Below are positions 4,687 through 50,900 of a stretch of 64,000 nt of DNA, piece by piece. The notes under the pieces were generated by a model. The model worked only from the letters and a program-made list of their open reading frames with translations, was not told where the DNA came from and did no database searches. Made by a program: the position numbers and the translations under genes. This DNA comes from Balanoglossus misakiensis (taxonomy: Eukaryota; Animalia; Hemichordata). The stretch lies in the NCBI GenBank assembly GCA_040954595.2, contig CM082590.2:9574088-9638087 (forward strand). Direction: 5' to 3'. The stretch's first letter is position 1; every line of letters starts with the position of its first letter.

Positions 4687-13786
<9,100 letters not shown>

Positions 13787-16583: not shown

Positions 16584-18400
16584 CAAAGGTAAATGGGGGA
16601 AATATATCATACAAAACATGAAATGCAGCCAAAATGAAATAAACATATCTTTGAAGGAAGCTACGAGTATCTAAACTCATACGAAAGCTGACATGGTGGG
16701 AAGGGCATTGTAAAAAAACAGACACTACTTGAAATGGACTAGATCAAAGGTGCTATTTTGGCAAAGGGGCGTGTACAATCATTGCACTATTGTCTCTGAT
16801 TGTGTGCTGAGTAGAGATTTAGAAATGGACGAAAGGGGGAGGGGTCTCCTGGTCCTAAAATCTGAAGTTTTGCTGTAATGAAAAACATAACAATTTGAAA
16901 TTATTCACTTCTTTTGTCAAGGCATTTCTGCAAGACTTATTCTGTGTTCTGTGGCGTGTGTCCATGAAACCAACCCTTTGGATGTCCGATGATTTCTGAG
17001 CGAACAATGTCTTGAATTTTTGTTCCGCAGAAGGCATCGATCTGTCAACAGTTGATGTCGCTTCAGAAATCGACATCCTGAAGACAGCAGTGGACCAATC
17101 AGAACTGTTTCCCATACTTCATGATGTTGCGCCGGACAATAGCGATGTTGTTCCGTCGCCCGGATTTGATGTCATGGGAGACATCTTCTTCGATGCCTTT
17201 ACGGATCTGTCAGGGCTTCTAAGTGGGGTAGGTGATCTTTTGATTCAAGTGTTTACCCATCCAACCCTGTTTTGGCTGATGCAAGCTTAGTGTATGTTAT
17301 TTGTGATGCAAGACATCATCATTCTCAAAGTCCTGCAAGATATTGACATTCCCAGGGTCCTAAATTCTCAGTGACATCACTTGTCGTCGTGGCAACAATT
17401 TTCAATACCTTGCATGCATAATTAATGAGGGGTGTTTCACAACATGATGCAAGCTCAGCACTTCTTGATGAAATGTCAGCAAAATAAAACAGCAAAACGT
17501 TGAGAGTGAATAATTCTTTCTGCGATGGTTGTGATGCGGATAATATCAAGATGGTGTCGTTTGCGGTAATCAATCTTTTTTCTTGTGATTCAGATTTTTA
17601 GAATTGGTTTTGCTGTTGTTTTTATCGTTTGATGTACTGTAGAACTGATCTTTCTCAAGAATGACTTCAGTCAAGACTGTGTTAGTGGCTACGCCAGTGT
17701 CTATAGTGGCCACTTTCTTACAGTATCTGTGCATTTTACATGTACCTTAATTGATGAGTCTATGAAGGCCAGGAACTTTCCTAAACTAGCCTTTATTGAC
17801 AGGTCATTTAATGCACATGTAAATTGCAAATTTTTTTTAACAAAGTGGCCGCTATATAGAGGTGGTAACTAACACAGGTTTGTTGAAAAGTATATTTGGT
17901 TTTTGCTGAGGTGGGGAAACAATAAGATTAATGTATGCCTTAATATTATTTGTTTACAGGAGGAGCCCTGTGGAGCTACATCTGATGTGGAAGTGCTTGA
18001 TACAATAAACAGCGAGGCTATTCTACCAAGTACTTCCACCCCCTTTGAAGAGAAAGCGGTACAATCTGGAAAGTCCCCAAGAAAACGAACGCTTGCTGTT
18101 TACGTGGAAGAGGATGACAATGAATTCGAACAGGAAGAGAAGAAGCCGAGGACCTCCACGTCAACCGCAAGCTTCGAGAAATATCGCGAGAGGCGCGACA
18201 AGAACAACGTCGCTTCGAGAAGATCGCGCGAGATCAAGAAAGTCAAAGATTCTGAGCTGGTCAAAAAAGCTGAAGAACTGGAGGAAAGTAACAACAAACT
18301 TAAAGACCAAATAGAAGAACTGACGAAGCACACAGAATTTTTGAGAACGAAATTAATCGAGACTCTGTCATCGAAAAGATTGGCACAAGCCCAGAAGTAA
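16522..18400 (+). CDS. bZIP transcription factor, C/EBP/PAR-like, 3 coding exons
   Basis: Exons 16522(or 16531)-16588, 17031-17227, 17960-18400 join in frame (phase 1, then 0). Basic region KYRERRDKNNVASRRSR followed by leucine heptads (LEESNNKLKDQIEELTKHTEFLRTKL); acidic N-terminal half. Confidence 0.85.
17277..17474 (+). promoter_or_regulatory. Intronic cluster of C/EBP-ATF (CARE/AARE-like) motifs
   Basis: TGATGCAAG at 17277, 17304, 17445 and TGATGAAAT at 17466, all fitting TGATGnAAn. Confidence 0.5.
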
Positions 18401-19276: not shown

Positions 19277-24239
<4,963 letters not shown>

Positions 24240-25002
24240 GATTTCGGCGTCCAAAGACAGCGTAGGTACCTGACCTTATCGTCTGCTTGATCTGCAGAGG
24301 AAACGCCCACCTTTGATGTCAAAGTTCAAAGGTCATCAAAGATGTCGCCCGAAATTGTTCTGTCATTGCCAGCGGTCCCTTCTTGTTCGATATATAGATA
24401 AAAAAGGTAATGTAGCGCTGGAAAATGATGCTCTACCGATTTTACTATTAAATATTCGAAAATAAATTATTTTCTTCAAAAATCCTCTTCTGTGCAGAAA
24501 AGCTGACATATACCGACGAGGGCGCACTTATACAACAATGTAAATTTCGTTGTTTCTATAGAAACTGTGGTATTTATGTAAATAATCATTGATTAGCGTC
24601 CTACTATTTTAAGTCACAAGAATGTTGCCAAGACCATCTTTTGACATCAGTAATATGGAGTACACATCACGTCAATCAGCACATTAAAACAAAAATACAC
24701 GTACACACAACTTTAACTTTTTGGACAAAGTCCTTTTAATAATACATTTTGTCTACAAACTGCTTCATACATGAAAGTTACAATGGTTTTTAAAAGCCCC
24801 ATTTTAAGCAAGATATATTTCTATTTCAGGGCAAAACTTCAGCCTCAAAGTATCACACTTAAGATGCTCAATCCATGGACATATAATGCAGAAGTATTGA
24901 CAGAGTATTGTCTGAATGTCCTTGCGCAAGAACTGTGTGGGTCTTCAAGAAAGATTTCTAAGAAAATGAGCCCTGTCTGGGACACTCAAAAATTGTGTTG
25001 TA

Positions 25003-27319
25003 TCAAGTCTGACTCATCAGACTGCTGGTTTTATGTATTCTGAGATGCTTTGTTAGATTTCCTTTCAATTTGCATCTGTAGCCGCAGAATTCACATTGCC
25101 ATGGTTTCTCGTCGGAGTGAATCAAGAGATGTTTCTCCATATTCGTCTTCGAGGAGAACTCGCGGCTGCAGAGCGGACACTTAAACTGGTTGGCTCTGGT
25201 GTGGATGTACAGATGCTGTTGAAGCCTGAAGCGGTTGCGAAACTCTTTCCCGCATCGATCACATTGAGCTCCTTCGTTGTCGTGTACGACGCGAAGGTGA
25301 TGTTTGAACGATTGGTAGATAGTGAACACTTTACTGCAGATCTCGCACGTGTACACGGTCGGGTTTTCTTCGTGTGAGGTCATGTGTTCCACCAGCTCGC
25401 AGTTGCGTCGAAATTCCTTGTTGCAGTGTTTACAAATGTGCTGTTTTACGGTATGCCGATTCAGGATATGCACGCGCAGCCCTGCGTCGGTCAGCAGGGT
25501 CCGATCGCAAATTTTGCATTTGTACGTTTTTTCTTTTGTGTGAATGTTCAAGTGTGCGTCTAGCTGATCTTTCCAGTGGAATTTTCGACCGCAATGCGAA
25601 CACTGGATCATCTTTTCCATATGTTCCCGTCTGTGCTTCACCAAACTGTCGTTGGTCTTAAAAACCGCTTCGCAGATTTGACACTTGTACCGATTCACGC
25701 CACTGTGAGCATTCATGTGAAGCCAGTGCTGCTTGCGATCAACGAATTCTTTTCCGCAAAGATGGCAAAAGTACAGAACCATCTTAGTCACATGATCGGA
25801 CAGAAGATGCTGGTGCCACTCCTTGTAAAATAAAGTCACACCACAGAACCGACATTTTCGAATCTGACACGGGCCCTTCACGCGATGCACTTCGCAGTTT
25901 CGTTCCTTCTTAAACGCAAATCCGCATTTCTCACAAATGTACGGCTTGCCCTCATTCCTGTCTTTCAGAATCAATTTGATTTTCTCCCTCCACGCTTCTA
26001 ATTCTTCTTCATTGTTAGCTGTGCATTTTTGGCGAATTAATGTTCTTCGAACTTTCGCTTCATTCGCGGATTTCGCTGCATCTCTTCGTCGCTTCCGTGT
26101 CCTCTTCACTCTCTCTTTGTCATCTTTAGTTTTCACATCTCTTCCAGCTCGTGTTTTCCTCTCAAGCCCATCATCGCAGTCATCATTGTCCTTCTCTGCA
26201 CTTTCGCTGCCCTCAGCACTTGACCTCTGACCCTGTGAACTTTGCACCGACTCTGCTTCGTTTTCTTTCTTCACTTCATCGTGCTCATCTCCACTACTTT
26301 CTTCTTCATCGTCAATGGCAAAACTGTCATCACTCCTTTTATCATCACTGTCTTCTCCATCCTCTTCCTCCTCCTCCTCCTCCACATCACCATCATCACT
26401 ACCACCGCCATCATCGTCACCATCATCACCACTTTCACCATCACCACCACCATCATCACAATTATCAGCATCTTTTAAACCCCCCTCATCATCTTTCCGA
26501 GCCCCAGCAATGGGAAAAGCAGTCTCTATTCCTGGTAACGGAGCCTTTTCCGGCTTTTCTTCCATCACCACTCTTGATTCCTGTAACCGTTCAACAGGAT
26601 AAGAAAATCTCTCTTCTACACCGGGCCCATTCTTGTCTGCCCCTTCACTCCTATATCCTGAATACCCTGCATCCCCACTGTAAGTGAAGTTACCCATCAA
26701 ATTAGCAGGCGGACACCCCTCTCTGTAGTACACAGGTCTACTCATTTCCTTTCTGGCTGTCGACTGAGGATGTGGGTTGGTTGATGAGATGACATCCTTT
26801 TCTTTCACATCTAATCCTCGCGATGGCTGTCTCACCAAGTTACTCGGTATATGAAAATCGTACGATCGACATTTCAGACCTGTAGTCTGGAATTCTCGGA
26901 CAAAGTCTTGACTTCCCATGTACTGTGATGATATTCCGTCCTCGGAGATGATGACAAACGCACTGCATCCTAATTTCTCCATCAACTCTTGAGTCTGAAA
27001 GAAAAGATAAGATGACTTCGAATTTGATCAAAACAGACGATCATAGTAGACATTGGAAATATACCCAGCCAAGTAAAGGAAGCAAACTGAATTTGAAGCT
27101 ACCCTGGCTTGACAGAGGGATGATACAGTCTGATTTGACATGCCAGCACTATTTATAATAAAGCCCCCCCCCCCCCCCCTGAGGGCCCCTCCCTAACACA
27201 GGCACTTATTATAGTCTCAGTGGTTTCTGTACACTTAATGACAACATCAAACTAACCTTCTCAAACACTTCATCCTTCAATCTAACCGACAGCCCGTCAT
27301 CTGGCCCTGATGACTGCAT
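25003..27319 (-). CDS. C2H2 zinc-finger protein (cluster member 1), 2 coding exons
   Basis: Exon 1 27319-27257 (MQSSGPDDGLSVRLKDEVFEK|GTTAGT), exon 2 26994-25003 (TQELMEKLGC...). Acidic linker, basic segment, about 11 CxxC...HxxxH fingers. Confidence 0.92.
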
Positions 27320-28065
27320 TTTCTCGACTTAAAAGAACAAAGCAAGCCAGGGTAGAGTTTGACCTTTTTGACCCTGCCCTTTTTCCTTTCTCTGTCGATA
27401 GCTGGCGCTCATGAGATTCGCGCCCTCAACGTTTGATATAAAATATGCCTCCTATCTTTTGTTTGATCTAAATTTGACCCCGTCTGGGCCCCACTACACT
27501 AGCCAGTAGTCCAATCCATTTCTAGTCTTTTCCGAGCACAACTGCAACATCGTTGTCAAGGGGACGATTAACAAATTCAAGGCCTCGTTGTGTTGATATT
27601 TCTCAATAAAAGACAGCGTTTGTTTACATGTTCAATATGGTCAACAAAAAAGTTTGTTAACAAGTATATTCCATGAAATTAAATGTAAAGAAATCAGACC
27701 TTTACATAAGAGTACACATCATGCGACTCAGCAGAACAAAACAAAAATACACATACTCACAACTTTGACTTTTTGGACAAAGTCCTTTTAATAATTCTCT
27801 TTGTGTTTCAAAATGCTTCATACATGAAAGTTGCAATGGTTTTTAAAAGCCTTGTTTTAAGCAAGATATATTTCTATTTCATGGCAAAACTTCAGCCTCA
27901 AAGCATCACACTTAAGATGCTCAATCCATGGACATATAATGCAGAAGTATTGACAGAGTATTGTCTGAATGTCCTTGTGCAAGAACTGTGAAACATTTCT
28001 AAGAAAATGAGCCCTGTCTGGGACACTCAAAAATTGTGTTGTATCAACAAGTCTGACTCATCAGA

Positions 28066-30326
28066 CTAACTGGTTTTATGTATTCTAAGATGTTTGGTTA
28101 GATTTCCTTTCAATTTGCATCTGTAGCCGCAGAATTCACATTGCCATGGTTTCTCGTCGGAGTGCATCAAGAGATGTTTCTTCATGTTTGTTTTGGACGA
28201 GAATTCACGGCTGCAGAGTGGACATTTCGACTGGTTGGCTCTGGTGTGGGTGTGCAGGTGCTGCTGAAGTTTGATTCGGTTGCGAAACTCTTTCCCGCAT
28301 CGATCGCATTGAGCTCCTTCGGTGTTGTGTACGACGCGAAGGTGGTATTTGAACGATCGGTGGATAGTGAACACTTTACTGCAAATCTCGCATGTGTACA
28401 CAGTCGGGTTTTCTTCGTGTGTGGTCATGTGTTCCACCAGCTCGCAGTTGCGTTGAAATTCCTTGTTGCAGTGTTTACAGATGTGCTGTTTTACAGTATG
28501 CATATTCAGGATATGCATGCGCAGATTTGCGTCTGTCAGCAGGGTCCGATCGCAAATTTTGCATTTGTACAATTTTTCTTTAGTGTGGACGTTCATGTGT
28601 GCGTCTAGCTGATTCTTCGTGTGGAACTTTCGATCGCAGTGCGAACATTGAATCGTCTTTTCTGTATGTTCCCGTCTATGCTTCACCAAACTGTCGTTCC
28701 TCTTAAAAACCGCTTTGCAGATTTGACACTGATTCACTCCACTGTGCGCTTTCATGTGATGCCAGCGCTCTTTGCGTTCCAGAAATTCTTTTCCACACAG
28801 ATGGCAAAAGTACAGAAACATCTTAGTCACGTGATCGGAAAGCAGATGCTGGTGCATCTCCTTGTAAAACAAAGTCACACCACAGAACTGACATTTTCGA
28901 ATCTGACACGGGCCCTTCATGCGATGTATTTCGCAGTGCTGTTCTTTCTTAAATGCAAATCCGCATTTCTCACAAACGTACGGCTTGCCCTCATTCCTCT
29001 CTTCCAGAATCAATTTGATTTTCTCCCTCCAAGCTGCTAATTCTTCTTCGTTGTTAGCTGTGCATTTTCGGTGAATTAATGTTCTTCGAACTTTCGCTTC
29101 TTTCGCGGATTTCGCTGCATCTCTTCGTCGCTTCCGTGTTCTCTTCACTCTCTCTTTGTCATCTTTAGTTTTCACATCTCTTCCACCTCGAGTTTTCCTC
29201 TCAAGCCCGTCATCGCAGTCATCATTGTCCTTCTCTGCAGTTTCGCTGCCCTCAGCACTTGACCTCTGACCCTGTGACCCTCGCACCAACTCTGCTTTGT
29301 TTTCTTTCTTCACGTCATCGCGCTCATCTCCACTACTTTCTTCTTCATCGTCACTGGCGAAACTTTCATCACTCCTTTTATCATCACTGTCTTCTCCATC
29401 TTTTTCCTCTTCCTCCTTCACGTCACCATCATCACTACCACTGCCATCATCGTCACCATCATCACCACTTTCACCATCACCACCACCATCATCACAATTA
29501 TCAGCATCTTTTAAACCCTCCTCATCATCTTTCCGAGCCCCAACAACGGGAAAAGCAGTCTCTATTCCTGGTAACTGTGCCTTTTCCGGCTTTTCTTCCA
29601 TCACCACTCTTGATTCCTTTAACTCTTCTACAGGATAAGAAAATCTCTCTTCTACACCGGGCCCATTCTTCTCTGCCCCCTCAGTGAAGTTACCCATCAA
29701 ATTGGCAGGCGGACACCCCTCTCTGTAGTACACAGGTCTTCTCATTTCCTTTCTGGCTGTCGACTGAGGATGCGGGTTGGTTGATGAGATGACATCCTTT
29801 TCTTTCACATCTAATCCTCGCGATGGCTGTTTCACCAAATTACTCTGTATATGAAAATTGTACGATCGACGTTTAAGACCTGTAGTCTGGAATTCTCGGA
29901 CGAAGTCTTGACTTCCCATGTACTGTGATGATATTCCGTCCTCAGAGATGATGACAAACGCACTGCATCCTAGTTTCTCCATCAGCTCTTGAGTCTGAAA
30001 GAAAAGATAAGATGACTTCGAATTTGATCAAAACAGACAATCAAAGTAGACATTGATAATATACCCAGCCAAGTAAAGGAAGCAAACTGAATTTGAAGCT
30101 ACCCTGGCTTGACAGAGGGATGATGCAGTCTGATTTGACATGCCAGCACTATATATAATAAAGCCCTCCCCCCCCCCCCCCCCTGAGGGCCCCTCCCAAC
30201 CGCGACGGGCACTTATTATAGTCTCAGTGGTTTCTGTACACTTAATGACAACATCAAACTAACCTTCTCAAACACTGCATCCTTCAATCTAACCGACAGC
30301 CCGTTATCTGGCCCTGATGACTGCAT
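28066..30326 (-). CDS. C2H2 zinc-finger protein (cluster member 2), recent paralogue of member 1
   Basis: Exon 1 30326-30264, exon 2 29994-28066; same architecture and intron phase as member 1. Confidence 0.92.
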
Positions 30327-30560
30327 TTCCCGACTTTAAAAGAACAAAGCAAGCCAGGGTTAGAGTTTGACCTTTTTGACATTGCCCTTTTCCCTTTCTC
30401 TGTCGATAGATGGCGCTCATGAGATTCGCGCCCTCGACGTTTGATATAAAATGTGCCTCCTATCTTTTGTTTGATCTAAATTTGACCCCGTCTGGGCCCC
30501 ACTACACTAGCCAGTAGTCCTATCCATTTCTAGTCTTTTCCGAGCACAACAGCAAACATA
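30327..30560. promoter_or_regulatory. Compact bidirectional promoter between ZF members 2 and 3
   Basis: Only 234 bp between divergent ATGs at 30326 (-) and 30561 (+). Confidence 0.7.
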
Positions 30561-33102
30561 ATGGCTGAACAGAATTCGGAAGCTACTACGTTATCAAGAA
30601 GTGACTTAATAGAGGCATTTTTCGACAGGGTAGGTGACAGACACTGTACTTTGATTTGAATGACAAAAGACCCTGGCCATTTTCTTAACCAGCGCGTCGA
30701 TCACAGACGATTAACGGTCGCGCGGTCACAAAACATAGAATATCCATTGTGTTATATATTTACAGTGTATATTAAATCAGAATGTCACTGGCAGACTGAA
30801 TAATCACCAAAGAGATCACTGACGTTCGATATATTAGTTGATGATGATGCTGACCAGTGGCTCTGTTTCAATGTAATCCATTTCATATTGTACACACCCC
30901 ATTGTAGATTTCAAGCGCGTCGACTCGAGCGCGTCTGATCTTTATAATGATAAACACATGTGCATTTCTGCATTGCAAGAATGTGTCGATTTCATGGCGA
31001 TATGTCCTGTGCAGATAGGATTTTTGGCCTTTTTTGGCAACAAGAGCTTTCTTCATAAAGTTATTATGGCATAGCTGTAATACTGCTGTTATAACAAGTA
31101 TTTAGTGATTCTTATTCCTGTATTTCATGTTTTCCAGGGTCAGGAATTGATGGAAAAGCTTGGATGCCGGATGTTCCTCCTTGTATCAGAAGACGGAATG
31201 CAGTCGGAATACATGGGAAGTGAGGATTTCTTGAGGGAGTTCTACTCTTGTGGATTGAAAGTGAAACCACAAGACGTTCCCAGAAAGAGTGTGAAGCGAG
31301 CGAGGCAACCAGCGGTTTGGATCCATCCAAGCGACGGGGGAAGATATGATCAAGAAATTCTCTACAGCAGTGGACAAAATACAACACCACATTCATTATT
31401 AGTGCCACAGTCTATTGAAACTGGACAGGCAGTTTCTATGAATCCTGAGAATGGCACAAGAACAAGTAGCTCCTTTGGAACCAGAGTAGGTAAAAGTCAA
31501 TCGGGTGATAACTGCGACCAACAGGCTCTGATTGGAAGTGATGGCAACTGGCAACATCAAAAGATATTTTTGCGGCAAAGACGTTATTGTAACCAGTTGG
31601 AAATCCAGCGTCGGACTTTAAGTATGGAGAATCCTGTTGCTGCAAGTAATGAAGGGAGCAGTGATTTTAAGTCATCGTCTGCTGAACACCGCACATTAGA
31701 ATCAGATGATGGAGATGACGCTGAGTTGCCAGGCAACCAAAATGGTGATGGTGAAGAAGTTGCCATGGGTAGTTGTGAGGGGCTGGGCGGTATAGCAGCA
31801 AGGATGGAGGAGAGAAATTATGAAATGAAAGATGGAGACCGTGATACTGATATGGCTGGCTTTGAGATTAGGCAAGTTACTGATGAGTTGCCAGGCAACC
31901 AAAATGATGAGTTTGACAATAGAACGCTTGCACAAGTGAAATATCCGATTTTTGTGAAACGTGGGAAAAGGATGTACTCAGAGAAAGAGGACGAGACAAT
32001 AGACGTTGCAAAAAAGAGAAATCTTGCAAAGCGTAAAACCCAAAAATTCAATTCTGAAGAGGAGGTTGACAACCACCGAGAAAAGCTGAGAAGTTTATTC
32101 CAGGAATTCAATGAAAGTGAACAGTATGTGTGCGGGAAGTGTGGCAGATCATTCAAGCAAGTCCACGGCTTGGAGATCCATCAGGTAAAAGGGCTGTGCT
32201 CGGAATGCAAGTGTCAGTTTTGTGGGAAGAGTTTCCCGGTGAAGGAGTGGCAGGAACATTTGCTGAAGGAACACGCGGAGAAGATGCTGATCTATGACTG
32301 TCATCTGTGCGGGAAACAGTTTGTGCATCGCTCGAAGCACTACCACCACGTGCAGAACCACGACGTTGACCAACGCCCCCACACATGCGGTGTGTGCGGA
32401 GCAACATTCAAATGGCACTACTCATTGACGAAGCATTTGCAGAAACATCAAGGCGTAACGGTGAAGTGTCAGTTCTGCGATTACGAGGCTGTCACGCAAA
32501 GCGATCTGAAGAAACACGAAAAAAAGCACACCGATGACAAATACGATTGCAAGTATTGTGGGAAGAGTTTAACCAGCGAGCCTAGCTTACACAGACACAT
32601 TGAACGCTACCACGTCAAATCAAAGTATAAATGCAACATTTGTGAGAAGCAGTTTTCCATGCAACCTGAGCTGCGCGCACACATGCTGCGACGCCACCAA
32701 GAGAACCCGGAACTTCACAAATGCGAGAAATGCGACAAAGGTTTCTTGACCGCGATTCTTCTCAAAGCGCACGTGCGTGTGATCCACAGCGAAAATCCCG
32801 TTCAATGCGAAATCTGCGGCAAAAAATTCAAACACATCTCCAAGTTGAAGGTGCACATGCCCATCCACTTCAAATCCGAGTTCCAGAACCACCAGTGCGA
32901 CCTTTGCCCTCGGAAGTTCCTGTCCCGGCCGCAGCTCAACGTTCACGTGCGATCGGTGCACTCGGACGAAAGACCGTTCAAATGCGAGAAGTGCAATTAC
33001 TCCTGTAAACTGAAGGGGAATCTGACGAAACATATGAAGACACACAAAGCATCATCTGAACCTGCAGCTGAACCTGTGGCTGACAAAGGAAGCCTTCCAT
33101 AA
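30561..33102 (+). CDS. C2H2 zinc-finger protein (cluster member 3), 2 coding exons
   Basis: Exon 1 30561-30629 (MAEQNSEATTLSRSDLIEAFFDR|GTAGGT), exon 2 31138-33102 (GQELMEKLGCRMFLLVSEDG...), about 11 fingers. Confidence 0.92.
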
Positions 33103-33876
33103 TTAAAACAAAACTGACACTGTATAGTATTATCACTGAAGTACCTAAGATGCTTAGTTCATGTTGTTTATACTTGGCTGCTTGGGGTTGTTTCCTTTGA
33201 CCAAAATTATTATTGCCTCATGTATGCACATTAAAGTAATCTTCTACTGAATAAAGACATTACCTTTTGCTTAAATAAACTTGCTGTGTTTCCATTTGTT
33301 TTGATGCATCATTCCATTCCTTTCATATTTCAATATCTTGCCAGCTGCCCAGTAATGGTGAAAAAGTCAACAGAAAGTTCTGCTTTTCATAATTTTTTCT
33401 TCTTCTGATGTTCAATAAATTGCGCCATCTTGCTCGAACAGTTGATCGAGAAATAAACTCGTAACGGAGACGATGTCAGTACCAAATAATCACGGTTTCA
33501 GTGAAAAACCCACACGCCATTGACTGTACACACTCGTTCGCCGAGTTCACTGTGGTGACCCAGGTTGACCTTTAAGAGCAGGTCAAAGTTCAAATAATTA
33601 CATATCCTTCTCGATTGATTAATACACATCTATATATAACACCTATGGCTTTAGTTAAGCCACAGGGGCCCCCTGGCTAAGCCAAGACTTGTCAGCTCGT
33701 CGACAGCCTTACAAACATCATTGAAAAGATCAAAATGTCTTTCTTTTGGTGAATGTGACATTTCGCCGACGAGGGCGTGATTTTGAGGTCAAAGTTGAAA
33801 CCATAGAAAACTACGAGCGCTTGTTGACATCTGGGAAAACTCATCCTTTTACAACAACCTGAGCTTTCCTGGTACA

Positions 33877-34687
33877 ATGGATGGCATATCGAAGTTAGCA
33901 AAACCAACCTGGCCTTTGCCTTCAAATGGTTTGGATAATCAGCTTTTGGGAAAACAACTCAAAGACAGTTTATTTGCTACGGTGAGTGAGTGATTTCCTC
34001 GGGTGGACAAAGTTAGGTAGAGATCCATATTCTCTTGATAGCAGAGACCTCCGCTTTGGAAGACTAATTTCTATCCAGATCGGAGCCCAGATTCCCTGTG
34101 TGGGACTCGCGGTCTCTTTGACGGAACAGTCAAATGTGAAAATCGAAGGTTGTTGTTGTTGTCGTCGTCGTGGCAGTGGTGATTTCCACCAAAATTATTG
34201 ACCCAAACACAATAACTTCTTTTACAGTGCCGGGAATTGATGGATAAGGTCGGCTGCAATGTCTTCGTGATCATCTCCGAAGACGGAATATCATCTGAAT
34301 TTTTTGGAAGTCAAGACTTTGTTAGGGAATTCAAAGGAAGAGGATTGACTATGACTCCATGTGATGTGGAAATAAACCCTGTTACTGGTGTTTCCGGGAA
34401 AGGACCAGGAATGTCTAAATCGTCTCATGCTGGAAGCAGTCTAACTAAGGAAACAGCTGTACCCTCTGAAAGACAACGTGAACATTTGACTGGGAGAATA
34501 TTACAGGTGGAAGAAACTGATGTTGAGATGGAGACAACTTTGGAAGATCGTTTGCAAGCAGGTGAGATATCAGATGGTAAACATGATGATGTTGATGATG
34601 ATTATTTTGATGGTGATGGTGGTGATGACGATAGTGGTGATGATGGAAATGATGACGACTATGATGAAGAAGAAGATAGTGATGATG

Positions 34688-34776
<89 letters not shown>

Positions 34777-36048
34777 ATTGATGATGGTAACTTCAACAAG
34801 GACAATGGTTCAAACCATATGGAAGATCATAGACAATTGGAGGAGAGACTACACCAAACAAACAACTCGGGAGAAGTGAGCAGTGCTTATGGAGAGGCTG
34901 ATTCACTCCCACAAATAAATAACCATGGAAACAGTGATGTGTCTGATGGTGATGCAGGAGAACACTGTGATGTTGCCATTGGCGACAAAAATCTCCACAA
35001 GCAGTCTCACCAGCACAATTTGCAGATGAATGTTTTGCCTGGCAGTATTTCCAACAACTTTGGAGCTGCAGATAGCGATGATGCAAAGAGAAGGAAAATA
35101 CACAGGGAGAAGGTCAGAGAAGCGGCCATCATTATACAGAGAAATAAACCTTTCATTTGCGAGAAATGCGGTTACGGGTATCAGCTGAAACGAGGCTTGG
35201 ATTTCCACATAGCGAGCGGTGTTTGTAGGAAGAGAACTTGCCGATACTGCAAAGTCGACGTGATATTCAAAGACTGGACTGACCACGTGGCTGATGAACA
35301 TGCGCATAAGATTAAACTTTTACCTTGTCGCCGTTGTGATAAAATTTTTATAGAACGGCACGAAAGACTCCATCATATGAAAACAGAACACCAGTCTGAG
35401 ATGATCTTCCCGCAGAAAATTACTGATGAAAAGAGTCGCAGAAAAAAAGCCTTCAAGTGTCGTTTTTGTGCGCGCTCTTATGCAAAAGAATCCACGACAG
35501 CTAGACACGAAGAAAAACACATCGCCACGAGAAGGGATTCGAATACGTGTCAGTTATGCGGTAAAGAATTCAAAGGCAGGTCGATTTTCATGCGACATGT
35601 TGAAGATGTTCATTCCAAACATCATTTTCCGTGCACCGAATGCGACAAAAAGTACAGAACCAAGCTGGAATTGGATAAACACATGGAGAACCATGGTAAA
35701 CTATTCAGAACATATACCTGTACATTATGCAGCGAAACGTTCAATACGAATAATGAATATGCCCGACATCGTAAATATTTCTGTAGAAAAATCTCACGAG
35801 TTCCATTCATCTGTGAGATATGTGGCAAGAGTTTTTCCAGAAAGTATTATTTGACGTCTCATCTCAAGCAACACGAGAAACCTCGTCACAAGTGTGACCA
35901 CTGCCCTCGTGTGTTTAATCTGAAATCAACACTGACAACGCATATTCGGTCCGCGCACAGCGACGAACGACCCTGGCAGTGTGACAAATGTGGCTACCGA
36001 TGCAAACTACGAGAGAATCTTCAAAAGCATTTGAAAATTCACAAATAA
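33877..36048 (+). CDS. C2H2 zinc-finger protein (cluster member 4), 2 coding exons
   Basis: Exon 1 33877-33981 (...KQLKDSLFAT|GTGAGT), exon 2 34228-36048 (CRELMDKVGCNVFVIISEDG...), poly-Asp tract, about 10 fingers. Confidence 0.9.
34681..34773 (+). repeat. (GAT)n coding microsatellite encoding poly-Asp
   Basis: About 30 GAT codons with one GGT interruption inside ZF member 4. Confidence 0.95.
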
Positions 36049-42553: not shown

Positions 42554-43228
42554 TACCATATAAATCCACTGAACTATACTAAACCGCATTGACAGTTTTG
42601 CAAATTTCTCCCTTTTCCAGCAAAACATTAATAGAAGCGAAATGCAAAGTATTTTCAGACAGTTTTTATGACCCTATTATCACAAAATCGGCGTGTCTGT
42701 GTTGGGCACCTACATAAATATGGGGACGAAGAATAACATCTATGTATAGTGTTAATAGACTCGAACAATTACAGTGGTGTTCATGGCAACCAGCCAGCGC
42801 CCTCTCCATCACCCCGGGGGTGTCCATAATTCACCATTTTTTCTGTAAAACTGTAAATACAATGTCTGCGACCTTTTCAACATTACAGAGAAGTTATGCA
42901 TCCTTGTTTACAGTGGTTCGCCCTACGCTAATTTGACATATTTCGAACGGCATTTTTATGACTTTAATATGCATGGCATTTAAATCCTGGCATTTTGATT
43001 AATGTCAACTTTTACTCATTTCTTCCACAGGATATGCTGCGGAGGAATTGCTTATTATAGACTTATACAACTTTACAAGAATTGGTTCAAGTAGGCTAAC
43101 AATTGAAATCTAAAGAGGTTTCCTGAACGAACGTTTGGATTTTGAAACTGGGATCTTCAAGTTCACGAACGACGTTTTTGAAGCAGATATTTTCTGACTG
43201 TAAATTTGTTTGGTAAAACAGACCAAAA

Positions 43229-44116
43229 ATGAATAACTCTACCGAATATTACGTCGACTTGCCGAACTATATGGTACCTGGCTACATTTCCATGGCAATA
43301 TCAGTCATGGGAATTTTGAATAACTTGTCGTTTTTTCTCGTCATCGTCAAATCAAAGGAGTTGCACAGTGGGGTTTATAGGTTGTTGGTGAATCTAGCAA
43401 CTTCTGATGTTGTCTTTTTGGCGGTGGAGATTTGGACTCAACGCCGGGGGCACAACTGTACCAATGAGGCCCTTCATGCCATGACGCTTTGCGAGTCAAG
43501 TTGGACGTTCTTGCTTATAAGCATCGATAGATATATCTCTGTGTGTCATCCCTTCAGTGCGAAATCTCTCCTCAAGACTAGGAACATGGCAGTCAGTGTA
43601 TCGCTAACTTGGGCGTTCAGCCTTCTCATGACCCTACCACACTTGGTACACTGTTCCTACTTCCTTTACACCATTACTCTCTGCCTCCAAGCATCTGTCA
43701 TGTTTATCTCCGTCACCGTGGCAACCACGTTGTATGTTTTGGTTGCCAGGGCGATGCATCGACGAAGCAAATCCTCAGCCGTGCCCGTGTCCAGCGTCAA
43801 TGAATCAAAACGCGTTGTACGGACAGTAATAATAACAAACATAGTGTATTTTAGTTGTATTTTTCCAGCTTTTCTGCTACTTGTGATTTTGCAATTTGAA
43901 TACGATCAGTCACTAGTAATCATACTCTATAATATACACCCCTATGTCCGTCTCCTGTTTCCGATAAACAGCTCAATAAACCCATTTATTTATCTTTCAT
44001 GCAACTCGACTTACAGAAAGGCGGCACAGAAAGTATACTGCCAGTGCAATGTTAAAAGCAAGCGCCACAGAAATAAGGAAAGCAATGGAACTAATACAAA
44101 AGAAGTTATGCTATAA
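43229..44116 (+). CDS. Class A (rhodopsin-like) GPCR, orphan, single coding exon
   Basis: N-terminal N-glycosylation sequon (NNS), GILNN (TM1), NLATSD (TM2), SIDRY (TM3), W..S.L.TLP (TM4), CIFP (TM6), NSSINPFIY (TM7). Acceptor at 43030 and donors at ~41938 and ~39592 suggest 5' non-coding exons. Confidence 0.9.
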   Translation: MNNSTEYYVDLPNYMVPGYISMAISVMGILNNLSFFLVIVKSKELHSGVYRLLVNLATSDVVFLAVEIWTQRRGHNCTNEALHAMTLCESSWTFLLISIDRYISVCHPFSAKSLLKTRNMAVSVSLTWAFSLLMTLPHLVHCSYFLYTITLCLQASVMFISVTVATTLYVLVARAMHRRSKSSAVPVSSVNESKRVVRTVIITNIVYFSCIFPAFLLLVILQFEYDQSLVIILYNIHPYVRLLFPINSSINPFIYLSCNSTYRKAAQKVYCQCNVKSKRHRNKESNGTNTKEVML

Positions 44117-44230
44117 CATATACCAGCCTCATCCATTTCAAGGGTGACAGTCGTCCGAACTGAGCATGAGTGACTTTTCTTTTCATAAACACATCATTTG
44201 CATGTTATATTAAAGTATATTGGCTATGTG

Positions 44231-44464
44231 ATACAAAGTAACTAAGTATTGTTTGCAGTGATGTACATTGTAGCAGTTACACTACAGTATAATACAAAGT
44301 AACAATAGTATTGTTTGAGTGATGTACATTGTAGCAGTTACACTACAGTGTAATACAAAGTAACAACCACATTGTTTGCAGTGATGTACATTGTAGCAGT
44401 TACACTACAGTGTAATACAAAGTAACAACACATTGTTTGCAGTGATATACATTGTAGCAGTTAC
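44231..44464. repeat. ~58 bp minisatellite x4
   Basis: Unit atacaaagtaacaa..attgtttgcagtgatgtacattgtagcagttacactacagtgta. Confidence 0.9.
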
Positions 44465-46030
44465 GTATCTTGACTTGCTAGCAACTGTGCTTTGTAGAAC
44501 CCAATGATACGACATCCAACACAATAACAAGCTAGATAGAAATAGCTTTATACTTTATATTTTATAGGTTGTATTTGGTTTTCTTTTTAGGATCTTATCG
44601 TATCACTACTGGAAAATTTCTCAACCATAATTAATACCTTTGTAAAGTCCACTCATACCTGTATTTTATAAAGCGATTTTGGCAATAAATTATATAGTTT
44701 ATTTTTCGTGAGTCATTATGAATGAAGGGGTAATGATAAACTTTTTTAACTGCAAAAGTCGCAATTATACCGGCAATTTCCCCATAATGTTACCCACTTT
44801 GATATCTGGGTGGGGTAAATCTTTCCTAGACCGCCACCAACGGTTATAAAATCGGTCACTTTCTTTTAAAAACTTTACGTACAGTGCCCTATCTGGATAT
44901 TGCACTTTAGTTGGGGTTTCCTTTTTGCCTCACACAACAGTTTAGCGCCTGAAAACGTCAATTTTTTGACGTACCGGAACTTCCTTGAAGCACCTTGCTG
45001 GTGTACACAATCGAAAATTTCTACTCGATAGAGAATAAATTTATATGTTTCGAGAAAAAAAAGACAGAAAGCTGTTACTTACAGTAGAGGATGTCCGCGT
45101 TGAGGTCTGCAATTCCAAGCCAGGAGAGCATCCTTCGTCAAGTCACTTTCCATGACCGATGGTTTATGCACATTATCTTCAACGAGGCTAGCAAAATTTT
45201 GGAAAATCCAGTCCATTGTCACAGTACTAGTCATGACCCCAACTTTCACTCGGTTGTCGAGATTTGCCCTTGGTAATAAACAGGTCGTTGTTGTCACTAC
45301 TTTCAGCCATGATGTTTGTAGTCAAAGATGGAGTCTCGAATGATGGAAGAGGCTCCTCACTGACCATCTGACAAATGAACTGGCTGAGAACTATCCAATC
45401 GTAATGCATCATGCACCAGGTGTATTTTATGACGCTTGTGATTGGCTGATGTGATAGAGACGTTGTTTTGCATACCAAGATCACATATGCAGTCAATGCC
45501 AGTGTTGTAAGCCGGAAAAAGTGCTCCTCACGAGCAGAAGTTCAGATATTGATCATTTTTGATATGCCACAGAAATTTAAAACTTCCAAGGTGTTATCTG
45601 AACAGTCTCAGACATTTTGCAAACATCTGAAGGCGAAAGAAATGTATGTACACCAAAGCAAGGAGTTCCGGAGAGCGCCCTCACACGTCAAGTTGTAGTT
45701 ACACCTTCAGTTTCAGGGTCAATACAATTAGCGCCATCATGGGGAGGGGGGGGGGGGGCAATGTTTGAATGGATAATCTGCAAACCAGAAACTTATGATG
45801 GTAGCTCAGATTTGATGGTAGTACAGATATTAATGAATTCAAAATTCACTTTGATATTTGTGCAGAGTTGAATGGCTGGTAATAGCCGAACAAAAATACA
45901 ACATATTCCATTAAAATGAAGCAGTCAAAAGCTATGGTGGGTAAAGTTTATCAGAAAGTTTATTTCGAAACGTAACAGAAAAGGTCATATAATAGAAACA
46001 TGCAAAGTTGTACCAAAGCTGCTGGCAGAA

Positions 46031-46123
46031 TTAACCCTTTCACCACAATGGTTCAGTCCAAACCTTTTGTTTCCTACAGTAATGTTGGACCTCTAAAGAG
46101 GAAAATGGGGGTGAAAGGGTTAA
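46031..46123. mobile_element. Complete copy of the ~90 bp MITE with TTAA at both ends
   Basis: ttaacccttttcaccacaatggttcagtcc...ggggtgaaagggttaa. Confidence 0.8.
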
Positions 46124-47973
46124 ATACCAGAAATTTGATGACAGATAAAACACCACTGTGAAAATATCAAGACATTTTCATTGCGTCTCCTTGACAACAG
46201 AGTTTCGTTGTTAGCCAATGGCTGCCATCTTTTTCATAACACACACTATCTTTATTCATCTCAATACTTTGTATAATTCTACCAAAATTCGCTTAAATCT
46301 TCTTGAAATCTTAGTTGAGAGGTTTTGGAATTTTTTGAAGACGCACAAACCAAAATTACCTCAAGACACAGAAGCACTGAAATTCTGCACATGTTGTCAG
46401 CGTTTGGAATCTTGCCAGCGATAGCAACCAGCTCATGTATTAAATCGCTCAACATTGCCTTAAAGGGCTTAATTTGACTTGTGCACTAATCTAATAAAAA
46501 TGTTTTATATTACATGTTTGTATTTTGACCATTGATGTATACAAGGGGTAGACACTGCTTACATATACAAGCTAAAATTATTTGTACAGTAATCAAGCAA
46601 ATCTGGGATACGCCCTACAAGTTGGACTACATTATTGAAGATATCAGCCTATATCAGAAGAAAATATATACTTTTGTGTAAAAATGTATGGTGTGTGATG
46701 AGAAGGGTTGTTTGCCTGCATGTTCAGATGTGCTTATGTGCATGCACTGTGGTGTTGTGGTCTGGGGTGTTGTGTTGTGTTAACCCTTTATACCCTATTG
46801 CATCACTACTCTCAACGTTTTTTTGTGTTTTATGGATAAATACATTTAACACTTCAGCCAAACTTAATGGACGTGGATATGATAAAATCAATGAAATAAC
46901 TACTAAATCTATTATTACTGGATACAATTATGAATCAATTGTCTTGAATAAAACACAAATAATACCCAAAGCATACATTATGTTGCGATTCACTGTTTGA
47001 AACACCATGTTGGTTGTGAATGCAACACTAAGGAAGTTGAATGAACTAAAATGTAACCAGTGAAATTCTGCATTGATACAATGTAACAGAATGTACAAAA
47101 GCTTCAAACATTGTTTCAATCAGTTGTTACAATTTCATCATTTGTTAAAACTTTTTGTAATTTCTGTTACAATGTATACAAATGCAGTTTCACTTGTTAC
47201 ATTTTAGTCAACTTGTCTCCTACAGTAGTTTCCTAATAAGGCTTGCATATGTAAAAGTATTGGCCGTGTTTCGCCATAAACAGAACTGACAAAACTCTTA
47301 TTAAAAGTCTATTCAATCTGAAGTATATCTACATCATTGAATGATATTTTCAATCAGAAATACCCACTGTGTCAAGACAAATTGAAATTTACTGTGTAGG
47401 AACAGAAATTAATTGGGTAAATATACAAAAATGAGGTTTCAACTGGACTACCCAGCTGTGACTTTGCAATGTAAAATCTACCTTTCAATTTATTCGGTCA
47501 ATACGATGGGAATCTGTCACACCACTTAAATACAAAACAATGACGTGACATCTCTCGTAGGGTCATATAATTTACATAAAATTGGGTAATTATTTGAATT
47601 TGTATTGTTTGGATATCTGACATTCTATCAATGCAATAAACTAACAAAGTAGGGATGATTTCCTTAGAGTATAAAAACAGGAAACTTTGTTAAAACTTGT
47701 GAAAATTACAGAAATTACACACTAATCAATAGATACTTGTATATTTTTAACGAGTCTTGCCTTTAATATAAAACAAACGGCTCCAAAAAAAAAGATATCT
47801 TTCATATCATTATTTTATCTCCCAAGACATTTCTCTGTTTTCTTCAAACGATCAATTTCTTACAATCACACCATCAAGAAAAGGTGATGAAATGTCTTGG
47901 AAGATTTGGATGTTTGTTTGTCCTCATTTGGCCTGACCTTTGACCCCAGATTTGTCGTGTATCACGTGACATC

Positions 47974-50900
47974 TTATTTCTTCATCATGCCCCTGGTAAA
48001 AGAAAGGAAAAGGAAAACATGAAGACATTTATGTTCCAATATTCACTGAGGCTTATAGAGGTTCTTTTAACATTCTATGCCTAAGGGACAGGAAAAGTTG
48101 TTCGGTATAAACAGGTTTCCAGATTAGACAGGGTTCGGTTTAGACGGGTTTTACTGTGGTTTGCAGATTCTCTTCCCAGAATGCAATACTTACGATAAGA
48201 GCTCAATGGGCAACGGGAATATGATTGTAGAGTTCTTCTCGGCAGAGATCGCGTTCAACGTCTGCAGATAACGCAGTTGGAGCGCGGCTGGAGATTCATT
48301 GATGACATCGGCGGCTTCCTTCAATGCACGTGACGCATTCTGCTCTCCCTCAGCTGCGATCACCTGTTGAAGACAATCATAAAAGAATGCTGTGTTTAAA
48401 AACCATGTACTATCCTTGTAAGATCACAAGCAAAAGACATCTCAATGTTGTCTTGTGTTTATAAAATTTGTCTTTACTTAGAAGTCTGTGACTGCGAACG
48501 ACCGTAAAGTTATAGACACTCATACATACATACATACATACATACATACATACATTTATACTTGCGTACATACAAACAGAAACTATCTTCAGTCTATAAG
48601 ATAAGGTCCTATCATATATGGCAATAGGAGCTTAACCCTTTCACCCCCACATCACTCTATTGAGGTCCAACTTTACCATTGACAATAATGGATTTGGACC
48701 AAACCAAAGTAGTGAAAGGGTTAAAATAGGGGAGTCTTACCTTGGCTCTTGCTTCTCTGGATGCTTCTGCCTCGGCGGCCATGGCACGTTGTAATTGAAC
48801 GGGTAGACGCACGTCCTTACTGCAAATTTAAGACACAACATGACAAATTCTTTTCCCCAATTCAAAATACCTGAATTCTAGACCCATTTAAGTTAATACT
48901 TGTCCGCACATGATAACATTATGCTAAAATTACCAGCACTTTGCTATCTTTCATAAATCGCAAAAAAACTCACGAGTACGCCATGCATTGGAGAAAATCA
49001 AACTAAAGCCTACAGATTTTACCCTCTCTTGCCACCAACATGGTCGAGTCCTATTGTCTCTACCTATGGATGGACCCATTTAGAGGGAAACAGGGGGGGT
49101 TGAAGGGTATGATTATCCCTCGTAGGTAGCAAGCGAAACAAATCTACCACAGAAAGAAAACGTTGCCTACAGAAACGTAATGGGAGCGTTAACATAGAAT
49201 GCGACAGCCTGAATCCTTGATCTCGGAAACTTTACTCACATTTCGACTCGTTCCACATAGATACCCCATGGGTCTGTAGCTTCATCAATAGCGGTCTAGA
49301 ATGTTAAAATCAGTGATCGGGACATTAGAAATGACAGCGAATCTGTGTGAAACAAGGCCATTAGTACTCACATTTCAACACGTTCCACATAGATACCCCA
49401 GGGATCAGTGGCATCGTCCAAGATACTCTAGAGTGGAATGAAAATAACACGGGAACAAAAAATGAAAACGATTCCGTCAAACAAGAGCTGCAGAAAAGGA
49501 AACAGACCCCTTTGACTACCACAGTGTCATTGGGCAAAAGTTCTTGTTATGGATTTCAACACTATATAAACTTTTGTTGATTGATTGATTGACCACAGAT
49601 AAGTGAAAACATTTTCATAGAGTTGCTCCAGAAGGCTATCTGCGACCGAAAGTGCGAGTCGCACTAATATCGCAAGTCGCTATCTTCGACTGTCTCAAAC
49701 GATATCTGCGAATGATATCTTCAACCCCTTTGAATTATGTCTACGATCGTCACAGTTGTAGTAATTTTGTCCCAGAAAGGTTTTCCGAGTAGACTGATGT
49801 CCGCGTGCGGTGGCCCCGGGTTGATTTGACCGTAGACAGCCATTGTTATTGTTGACATATGAATTCTAGTCCGGACTTGAATTCAAATTCTGCACAACCA
49901 CAATGCTGAACATACACATGTTATCGTTCTCAGTTAAAGTATGTCCAATGGCCACTGTAGGAGGTACCACATGCCGGTAGGACGAGGGTTAAATAATAGC
50001 ATGGATTATGGTAGTCAAAGGGTTATTTCTAATCGCAGCAGAATGACAGCTTGTCAAATGAAAGTTTTGCTACAGAGATGGAACACATTATAGAAAAGTC
50101 AAGCATGAAAATGTCTTGAAAATGAAGTCAATGCGATTGAAATAAAGCAAAGAAAACAAAGAGAATGACAAGCGAGCTCTTGTAGAATGCCTCAGTCGAT
50201 GCCTTAAAGTTAAAGTTTCTAACACTAGTCCGGACTTGAATCATTTGTGGTCAATAACAAAGGCCATTACTCATATACAGGCTCTGATGAGTATCTAATG
50301 ACTGAACATAAAGCTGTCCAGAGTAAGAAACTGGTGTTATACAAGGGAGAAAAATAGACATAAGTTAGAGTTACTGGGGCTTTAACAAACATGTGGTACC
50401 AGTACACATACCGACGTTGAAAGATTACTAAAAGCTGATTATGTCCAAAGTTGACTAGTTGAATACACAGGTAGTTGCTCTTGTAAGTTGTATGCCTCTA
50501 GCACGCACTAGACTAGTCTCTTTGATAACGGCCACAATACACAAAGTTATCATATAATGCCAATTCACAGACTGAATAATTTTCATAGAAGTTGAAAACA
50601 TCGCGCCACCGCCAAAAAGTATCGAACGTTTTAAGTGATTTCTCTCCGTTTCACAACTGCTGAAGAGTATCGAACATCACAATTACCGACCTGCATTTGA
50701 TGACTGATGTTCTCACGGTCAGCCAAGATCTCGGCCAAGTTCTTAGTTCCCAGGACGTTTCTCAATGTGGTCTGCGCCAAGAGACGGGTGGAGTGGTTGG
50801 AGTTCTCCACGTTGGCCACGGAAATGGTGGCGTTGTTGACGCGGTAGTAGACGACCGCGTCCACGGATACGGTCACACTATCCTTGGTCAGAATCTGCAA

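What the first reader, a model, noticed from the sequence alone, without database searches (positions are those of the whole stretch)
25003..36048. Four C2H2 zinc-finger genes share an unnamed N-terminal domain resembling the MADS/SRF dimerisation module
Seen: after splicing, all four begin with a ~50 aa block, e.g. RLKDEVFEK|TQELMEKLGCSAFVIISEDGISSQYMGSQDFVREF, DLIEAFFDR|GQELMEKLGCRMFLLVSEDGMQSEYMGSEDFLREF, QLKDSLFAT|CRELMDKVGCNVFVIISEDGISSEFFGSQDFVREF, split by a phase-0 intron at the same position, while linkers and most fingers are unrelated. Knowledge (recalled): SRF reads GIMKKAYELSTLTGTQVLLLVASETGHVYTFAT; the pattern K..EL....G...hhh.SE.G and the helix-beta-hairpin-helix layout agree, but the basic DNA-binding N-terminus of MADS is absent. 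It is not KRAB, SCAN, BTB or ZAD. Inference: a lineage-specific effector/dimerisation domain defining a ZF family analogous to KRAB- or ZAD-ZNFs.
Basis: partly seen in the sequence, partly recalled or inferred. Interest (0 to 1): 0.8.

Follow-up and report, generated by a model that had tools for sequence, protein, structure and literature searches.

The report
SRF-derived pairing domain on zinc fingers
Four neighbouring zinc-finger genes, members of a family found so far only in acorn worms, begin with a small uncatalogued domain that is predicted to fold and pair like the muscle regulator SRF and is cut by an intron at the same spot as SRF genes, so it is likely a recycled piece of SRF that has lost most of its DNA-gripping residues and likely lets these proteins work in pairs.

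Summary
The four two-exon C2H2 genes and their shared ~60-residue N-terminal domain are real. The domain reaches no Pfam cut-off. Its 27 database relatives are all from three acorn worms (Ptychodera 19, Saccoglossus 6, Glandiceps 2). A model from 19 sequences (pLDDT 79) has MADS proteins as its top Foldseek hits and MADS/NRF1 chains as the top 5 of 48,161 in VIA-align, though absolute scores are weak (Z up to 5.4). A homodimer is predicted with MADS geometry (0.53, best control 0.02). New result: Pfam, hhalign and several structural alignments agree on one register, and in it the family's phase-0 intron falls after MADS residue 31, exactly where SRF genes fetched here are interrupted (23 loci with the full intron). 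The dimer residues L28, E34 and L35 are kept; the basic arm, K23, R24 and K30 are mostly lost. Best reading: an SRF-derived, likely DNA-binding-dead dimerisation module fused to a finger array, working like SCAN, ZAD or the NRF1 dimer domain. Corrections: two genes are 87% identical duplicates, the finger arrays are related, and the family is small. Repression and expression are untested. I found no description in print.

The parts
25003..27319 (-). Gene A: exon 1 27319-27257, intron 262 nt, exon 2 26994-25003; 684 aa
   Evidence: Pfam zf-C2H2
28066..30326 (-). Gene B: exon 1 30326-30264, intron 269 nt, exon 2 29994-28066; 663 aa; tandem duplicate of A
30561..33102 (+). Gene C: exon 1 30561-30629, intron 508 nt, exon 2 31138-33102; 677 aa; head-to-head with B (234 bp between start codons)
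   Evidence: groups with 11 Ptychodera proteins, 100/100
33877..36048 (+). Gene D: exon 1 33877-33981, intron 246 nt, exon 2 34228-36048; 641 aa
   Evidence: groups with 3 Ptychodera proteins, 100/99
26851..27298 (-). MADS-like domain of A (27298-27257 and 26994-26851), split by the phase-0 intron after MADS position 31
29851..30305 (-). MADS-like domain of B (30305-30264 and 29994-29851)
30588..31281 (+). MADS-like domain of C (30588-30629 and 31138-31281)
33940..34371 (+). MADS-like domain of D (33940-33981 and 34228-34371)
25768..26007 (-). Gene A: family-specific helix + C2HC + short C2H2 module before the canonical fingers
28807..29046 (-). Gene B: same atypical finger module
32059..32298 (+). 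Gene C: same atypical finger module
35086..35325 (+). Gene D: same atypical finger module
24658..30555 (.). Tandem duplication unit (about 2.9 kb twice) carrying A and B with promoter, intron and 3' flank
   Evidence: blastn 90.8% over 2904 columns; sliding divergence

Best explanation
The four genes belong to a small acorn-worm C2H2 zinc-finger family whose N-terminal domain is predicted to be a MADS-fold dimerisation module, likely descended from a copy of the SRF gene and likely no longer able to bind CArG DNA itself. Shown: the genes, the shared domain, its intron position, and the loss of most basic residues in the SRF register. Predicted: helix 1 of two chains packs antiparallel through the residues equivalent to L28 and L35, the first strands pair into a four-stranded sheet, and a short second helix covers it. 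Inferred: a 5' part of SRF (end of exon 1, intron 1, start of exon 2) was joined to a finger exon before the three sampled acorn-worm species diverged; DNA recognition passed to the array of 10-11 fingers, tethered by a 200-400 residue, mostly acidic, poorly conserved linker. A dimer would then bring two arrays to paired or distant sites, and paralogues would likely heterodimerise because the interface residues are conserved across them. This is the division of labour solved for NRF1 (MADS-like dimer domain plus separate DNA-binding domain) and known for SCAN and ZAD proteins. The invariant family-specific residues of strand 2 and the tail may form a cofactor surface.
For: Fold: model of the Ptychodera member P0003 from 19 rows, pLDDT 79.4, H4-22, E27-32, E35-41, H43-48. 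All Foldseek rows shown above rank 45 are MADS proteins: SRF 1k6o prob 0.97, SEP3 7nb0 prob 0.99, TM 0.64, rmsd 2.0 over 49. VIA-align top 5 of 48,161 chains: SEP3 Z 5.4 (rmsd 3.5, 54 aligned), SRF 5.3 (5.0, 60), MEF2A 4.9, MEF2D 4.4, NRF1 3.7; next unrelated 3.1. Atlas: the three best named clusters carry SRF-TF, scores 0.80-0.81, a lead only. Register: Pfam SRF-TF positions 17-48 on residues 9-39 of one Saccoglossus member; hhalign vs 8 SRF rows P 0.018, 32 columns; ungapped scan gives one offset, reached by 2 of 2000 shuffles; SEP3 and MEF2D structural ranges start at residue 18 = model residue 1. Intron: of 119 loci fetched, 108 are MADS; 23 show a donor right after residue 31 plus the next exon, 52 more show GT there, 32 read through, 1 is cut off. 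Fused or variant gene models of Ptychodera and Saccoglossus break at this same residue (P0007, P0009, P0031, P0032). Dimer: score 0.53, best of 3 controls 0.02; mark reached by 21 of 30 microbial dimers and 0 of 23 monomers, and by 17 of 29 eukaryotic dimers (animals 7 of 16) and 0 of 30 monomers; runs agree in at least 75% of contacts, pLDDT at least 69; contacts 11-11, 11-18, 7-18, 26-30, 28-28, 29-45. These match L28 and L35 of the SEP3 interface (PMC8346517 section 6). Position 28 is L/V/F, 34 is E/D and 35 is L/F in 24 of 24 rows; K/R stands at 23 in 2 of 24, at 24 in 1 of 24, at 30 in 0 of 24; 18 of 24 proteins start after MADS position 4; SRF residues 2-31 hold 11 K/R, the window genes 2-4. 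The domain is under purifying selection between A and B (omega 0.20).
Against: Every absolute score is weak: Foldseek E 0.15 or worse, VIA Z under 6, hhalign probability 2.5%, Pfam 12.4 bits against a cut-off of 26 and in only 1 of 19 members. Six sequence searches of the PDB listed no MADS chain at E up to 10. The Atlas gave only unnamed clusters for the window's own gene C exon 2. The dimer was folded for P0003, not a window protein, and the pass may be from memory of solved MADS dimers. Helix 2 and the tail are poorly modelled (pLDDT 56-65), and MEF2-type chains fit with lower rmsd than SRF. SRF structural ranges start at 156, two residues off the sequence register, and several MEF2 ranges start at 16. 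A type II protist sequence aligns in the same register (7 of 2000 shuffles), and MEF2 and NRF1 intron positions were not tested. The shuffle test used columns chosen after the register was known.
Confidence: 0.68

Rival explanations
1. Same fold and function, different route: the domain came from a transposon-borne MADS-like gene (itself possibly SRF-derived), as SCAN is held to come from a retrotransposon capsid (recalled), and related MADS-fold heads are widespread in invertebrates below my detection limit.
For: Unchecked earlier notes of this scan report MADS-fold partner genes in Academ-like transposons of mussels, mushrooms and other animals, and MADS-like heads on lola-like loci and on mollusc/annelid finger proteins. 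My only exhaustive profile search used the narrow 7-row, 48-position profile.
Against: I saw no transposase or terminal repeat at the cluster (not searched for specifically). The intron and the SRF-type residues at positions 39-43 and 49-52 point to SRF itself. None of the 76 or so non-acorn-worm finger proteins fetched carried the domain (best 1.4 bits or none).
Confidence: 0.15
2. The domain's main job is to recruit a co-repressor or co-activator, KRAB- or FiNZ-style, with or without dimerising, and the family silences transposons.
For: MADS domains dock cofactors (entry titles SAP-1/SRF, HDAC4/MEF2A, MATalpha2/MCM1; PMC10810270 passage). S37, G41, S42, G53, L54 are invariant in 19 rows and lie outside the MADS consensus. 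Contact residues differ between A and B at 12 of 36 sites against 15 of 155 other finger sites, p 0.0008. Ptychodera has a young clustered expansion.
Against: No cofactor or repression evidence was obtained. Omega at contact sites is 0.30, not above 1. The family is small and the last finger is conserved across species, unlike an arms-race family.
Confidence: 0.1
3. The helix-hairpin-helix fold is convergent or derives from the NRF1 dimer domain, and the intron match is coincidence.
For: The motif is small and all scores are weak. NRF1 has the same dimer fold at 16% identity with 'no apparent evolutionary relationship' to SRF (PMC10810270). Phase-0 introns after lysine codons are favoured sites (recalled).
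Against: NRF1 ranks below four MADS chains (Z 3.7; Foldseek rank 46) and no Pfam NRF1 model matched. Sequence register, structure register and intron agree. A uniform chance of the intron match is about 1 in 190 (62 codons by 3 phases; my estimate, higher with site bias).
Confidence: 0.07

Closest known systems
Serum response factor, MADS/SAM core (PDB 1K6O, 1SRS, 1HBX; Pfam PF00319)
   Same: Predicted helix-strand-strand-helix fold and antiparallel dimer; L28/E34/L35 equivalents; SRF-type residues at 39-43 and 49-52; phase-0 intron after position 31.
   Different: Basic N-terminal arm and most of K23, R24, K30 absent; below the Pfam cut-off; 18-20% identity; fused to 10-11 zinc fingers; multi-copy and fast-evolving, whereas the SRF rows fetched are 80-95% identical to each other.
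NRF1 dimerisation domain (PDB 8K4L; Liu et al., PMC10810270, passages read)
   Same: MADS-like fold used mainly to dimerise, joined by a flexible linker to a separate sequence-specific DNA-binding domain.
   Different: Weaker structural match (Z 3.7); NRF1's domain has extra helices and contacts the DNA backbone; its DNA-binding domain is not a finger array; no NRF1 Pfam match.
SCAN-, ZAD- and BTB-C2H2 proteins (listed as the N-terminal effector domains in PMC12774644, passage read)
   Same: N-terminal interaction domain, variable linker, C-terminal finger array, clustered lineage-specific copies.
   Different: No sequence match at E up to 10 and a different predicted fold; far fewer copies.
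KRAB-ZNF and FiNZ-ZNF (Wells et al., PMC10547256, passages read)
   Same: Lineage-restricted N-terminal domain, clustered genes, variable base-contact residues.
   Different: FiNZ is a 28-residue acidic sequence on its own exon with about 700 genes in zebrafish; here the domain is about 60 residues, split by the intron, shares its second exon with the fingers, and repression is untested.

Membership tests
MADS-box transcription factors (SRF type) | Pfam SRF-TF score above the gathering cut-off (26 bits) | tested here: not met
   Best 12.4 bits, E 0.11, in 1 of 19 members
MADS-box transcription factors (SRF type) | Long helix, two-strand hairpin, second helix | tested here: met
   Predicted only: model; MADS chains top; element limits match SEP3 18-40, 44-48, 55-58
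MADS-box transcription factors (SRF type) | Dimer through antiparallel helices (L28, L35) and a four-stranded sheet | tested here: met
   Predicted only: 0.53 vs best control 0.02, may be from memory of solved MADS dimers; residues conserved in 24 of 24 rows
MADS-box transcription factors (SRF type) | Basic N-terminal arm and basic helix-1 residues that contact DNA | tested here: not met
   18 of 24 proteins start after position 4; K/R at 23, 24, 30 in 2, 1 and 0 of 24; K/R at 31 in 15 of 24. That arm and helix contact DNA: PMC8346517; individual residue roles recalled
MADS-box transcription factors (SRF type) | Sequence-specific binding to CArG boxes | not testable with these tools
   Needs a shift assay
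MADS-box transcription factors (SRF type) | SRF gene structure: phase-0 intron after MADS residue 31 | tested here: met
   23 loci with donor and next exon, 52 with GT only, 32 read-through among 108 MADS loci; window intron at the same aligned residue
NRF1/EWG family | NRF1 DNA-binding Pfam domain | tested here: not met
   No match at E up to 10 for domain or whole proteins
KRAB-, SCAN-, BTB- or ZAD-C2H2 proteins | Match to the KRAB, SCAN, BTB or zf-AD profile | tested here: not met
   No match at E up to 10
KRAB- or FiNZ-like repressor families | Transcriptional repression through a co-repressor | not testable with these tools
   No data
Tandem C2H2 zinc-finger proteins | Array of C2H2 fingers above the Pfam cut-off | tested here: met
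   zf-C2H2 81-111 bits, 7-10 stretches per gene; 10-11 fingers by loose pattern

The most novel reading that the evidence does not exclude
A duplicate of the SRF gene was turned into the head of a zinc-finger family, giving animals a third kind of MADS-derived regulator that keeps SRF's intron as a fossil; its members pair combinatorially with each other and also with SRF itself, retargeting or damping SRF, and it is one of several hidden MADS-fold heads on invertebrate transcription factors that fill the role of BTB, SCAN and ZAD.
Probability: 0.2. Interest if true: 0.85.

Novelty: new variant of a known kind. Interest (0 to 1): 0.64.

Why it matters
Animal MADS proteins are normally just SRF and MEF2 types (two lineages, PMC8346517). 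A degenerate SRF core reused as the pairing head of a C2H2 family would be a new entry beside BTB, SCAN, ZAD and KRAB, and one whose donor gene can be named, because an intron marks it. That makes the origin of zinc-finger accessory domains directly testable in a deuterostome outgroup, and gives a natural experiment on how a DNA-binding dimer fold becomes a pure dimer fold, as proposed for NRF1. The weight is limited by the narrow range (acorn worms so far), the small family and the lack of any functional data.

Tried and rejected
No whole genome is held, so no genome-wide count. No RNA holder listed. First model from 7 rows was too poor for Foldseek, though VIA-align already placed NRF1, SRF, MEF2A, SEP3 and MEF2D in ranks 4-14 at Z 2.6-3.0. 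Viral structure library: nothing under E 0.48. Viral contigs: 30 pattern matches, none confirmed; the same query had no usable stretch for metagenome contigs. In the representative search 12 of 28 rows were repeat proteins with many tiny matches and were dropped; they score under 7 bits per domain. P0005, a 55-residue ENA member of a cluster, is unrelated and was dropped. A search with the atypical finger module to find outgroups returned 103 proteins; only acorn-worm ones carry the full module (70 bits or more; others 40 or less). No CArG box in the three upstream regions checked. Positive selection on contact residues is not shown. Literature: ten searches. Seven bore on novelty or precedent and listed nothing on a MADS-fold head in C2H2 proteins or on this family, judged from titles and abstract starts; one search found the NRF1 structure paper; two searches sought the SRF exon border, and PMC12385735 gave only that human exon 2 is 267 nt. 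PMC3640940 and PMC10004826 (passages) were not useful. No supplements were read; domain tables in supplements or subscription journals could already list this domain.
Full report
Observation. The four genes exist as described. Each has a short first exon (63, 63, 69, 105 nt), a phase-0 GT-AG intron at the same residue, and a long second exon holding the rest of the domain, a linker and the fingers; all splice to one open frame. In each, the chosen ATG is the first in frame after an upstream stop. Between independent pairs the domain is 47-63% identical and the linker 19-26%. Two corrections: A and B are a 2.9-kb tandem duplicate, 90.8% identical, and the finger arrays are related, not unrelated: they align finger by finger, begin with an atypical helix + C2HC + short C2H2 module and end in a conserved last finger.

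Range. Pfam gave no family for the domain of the window genes or of two relatives at E up to 10. A word-based search with the window profile found 3 proteins. An exhaustive HMMER search of 1.84 billion representatives with a 7-row profile gave 28 rows, 16 of them true members and 12 repeat artefacts. A 19-row profile found 27 proteins among 7990 candidates scored: 19 Ptychodera flava, 6 Saccoglossus kowalevskii, 2 Glandiceps talaboti; some are isoforms or fused models, 24 of 27 carry fingers, and 15 of the 19 Ptychodera proteins list the same longest-contig length, which suggests one cluster. The window is therefore likely an acorn worm (inferred). A tree of 24 of 34 sequences (10 fused, truncated or redundant models left out) puts C with 11 Ptychodera proteins (100/100), D with 3 (100/99), A+B apart, and the 4 Saccoglossus proteins together: old subfamilies with separate expansions. 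The atypical module is also confined to acorn worms among 103 hits. The deeper profile was not run exhaustively, so distant members elsewhere are not excluded.

Fold. A first model (7 rows) was poor. With 19 rows, P0003 residues 12-73 fold at pLDDT 79.4 as helix 4-22, strands 27-32 and 35-41, helix 43-48; the last 20 residues are uncertain. Foldseek lists only MADS proteins among the rows shown above rank 45, with probabilities up to 0.99 but E-values of 0.15 or worse; NRF1 is rank 46. VIA-align ranks SEP3, SRF, MEF2A, MEF2D and NRF1 first to fifth of 48,161 chains, Z 5.4 to 3.7, ahead of 3.1 for the next; a second look at 358 Foldseek chains has 20 MADS entries then NRF1. These Z values are below the tool's own bar of 8; the support lies in the clean ranking and full coverage of a very small domain. 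The Atlas gave SRF-TF clusters as the best three named hits for a Saccoglossus member (0.80-0.81) and only unnamed clusters for the window's gene C.

Dimer. Two copies of the P0003 domain scored 0.53 against a best control of 0.02; the mark was reached by 21 of 30 microbial and 17 of 29 eukaryotic solved dimers (animals 7 of 16) and by 0 of 23 and 0 of 30 monomers; runs agree in at least 75% of contacts, pLDDT at least 69. The contacts are antiparallel helix 1 (11-11, 11-18, 7-18), antiparallel strand 1 (26-30, 28-28) and helix 2 on the partner's strand (29-45). Model residues 11 and 18 are MADS 28 and 35, the two leucines named in the SEP3 interface (PMC8346517, section 6 read). The pass may reflect memory of solved MADS dimers, so it shows likeness rather than binding.

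Register and intron. Pfam SRF-TF aligns positions 17-48 to residues 9-39 of one of 19 members (E 0.11). One matches human SRF at E 2e-50. hhalign of the family against 8 SRF rows gives P 0.018, probability 2.5%, 32 columns, with family column 14 on the lysine at MADS 31; against 2 type II protist rows P 0.43. An ungapped scan finds the same offset for both (SRF 21.0, 2 of 2000 shuffles; type II 15.5, 7 of 2000). SEP3 and MEF2D structural ranges agree (model 1 = residue 18); SRF and some MEF2 ranges start two residues earlier. The family's intron lies after column 14. Of the 119 loci, 11 are not MADS and 1 is cut off; 23 have a donor (21 GT, 2 GC) directly after residue 31 and the next exon 47-2114 nt downstream, 52 have GT there with no next exon found, and 32 read through (the last likely include transcripts and lineages without the intron, and the loci are partly redundant: 21 distinct intron lengths among the 23). 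I recall human SRF intron 1 after K171, the same residue; PMC12385735 shows only that exon 2 is 267 nt (passages). Odd gene models in Ptychodera and Saccoglossus break at the same residue, so the intron is likely family-wide. This match is independent of protein modelling but depends on the register.

What was lost. In 24 rows, positions 28, 34 and 35 are fully conserved in kind, while K/R stands at 23 in 2, at 24 in 1 and at 30 in none; 18 proteins begin after position 4; SRF residues 2-31 hold 11 K/R against 2-4 in the window genes. [quoted passage not shown] Between A and B the domain has omega 0.20; base-contact residues of the fingers differ at 12 of 36 sites against 15 of 155 elsewhere (p 0.0008) but with omega 0.30, so specificity is diverging without proof of positive selection.

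Mechanism. Most likely the domain dimerises the proteins and the finger arrays read DNA, as in NRF1, whose MADS-like dimer domain is linked flexibly to a separate DNA-binding domain (PMC10810270, passages). Heterodimers among paralogues, cofactor docking and pairing with SRF are inferred possibilities, untested. Rivals: relay through a transposon-borne MADS-like gene, suggested only by unchecked earlier notes; a KRAB-like repressor role; convergence or NRF1 origin.

Comparison and novelty. It works like SCAN-, ZAD- or BTB-finger proteins and is not a member of any. It fails two defining MADS tests (profile cut-off, basic DNA-binding arm), so it is a MADS-derived domain, not a MADS-box factor. 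A 2026 paper lists BTB, ZAD, SCAN and KRAB as the N-terminal effector domains and does not mention MADS (PMC12774644, passages); the metazoan ZNF survey mentions neither MADS nor hemichordates in its main text (PMC10547256). Seven searches on novelty or precedent listed no description, within an open-access library and without supplements. Verdict: real; new variant of a known kind; confidence 0.68 in the full explanation (about 0.9 for the fold alone); interest 0.64.

Noticed in passing
window 25768-26007, 28807-29046, 32059-32298, 35086-35325: A second family hallmark: a conserved helix followed by a C2HC finger and a short C2H2 finger with a conserved Trp, found only in acorn-worm proteins among 103 hits. 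Function unexplained; possibly protein-binding. Some Ptychodera models carry it twice.
   Followed up: partly
window 24658-30555: Uneven divergence of the A/B duplicate: intron 9 of 262 bases (3.4%) and promoter about 2-5%, but finger region 8-14% with dS 0.36. Suggests gene conversion of the 5' part, or a mosaic of haplotypes.
   Followed up: partly
window 30327-30560: B and C are head-to-head with only 234 bp between start codons, likely a bidirectional promoter; A carries a copy of it without a partner gene.
   Followed up: no
L001, L029, L064: Divergent SRF-like genes from unnamed contigs have the same residue-31 intron, two of them with a GC donor, hinting that the intron is very old.
   Followed up: no
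L023, L059, L076, L086, L103, L112: One SRF lineage reads through residue 31 but its frame breaks shortly after the hairpin turn, suggesting a different intron position in that lineage.
   Followed up: no
window 4687-7955 (-) and 62937-63299 (-): Exons of two activin/TGF-beta receptor genes: a kinase plus ectodomain near the left end and another ectodomain at the right end.
   Followed up: no
window 17873-18400 (+), 43217-44116 (+), 50631-50936 (-), 61901-62588 (-): A bZIP gene, a single-exon rhodopsin-family GPCR, a Band 7/stomatin exon and WAP-domain exons.
   Followed up: no
window 3136-3232, 22336-22427, 22903-22996, 46031-46125, 48632-48725: A dispersed repeat of about 92 bp in five copies, 75-89% identical; also a tandem unit of about 60 bp shared by 44227-44496 and 55711-55930.
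   Followed up: no
window 34600-34780: Gene D's linker has a long GAT repeat giving 43 acidic residues in 50.
   Followed up: no
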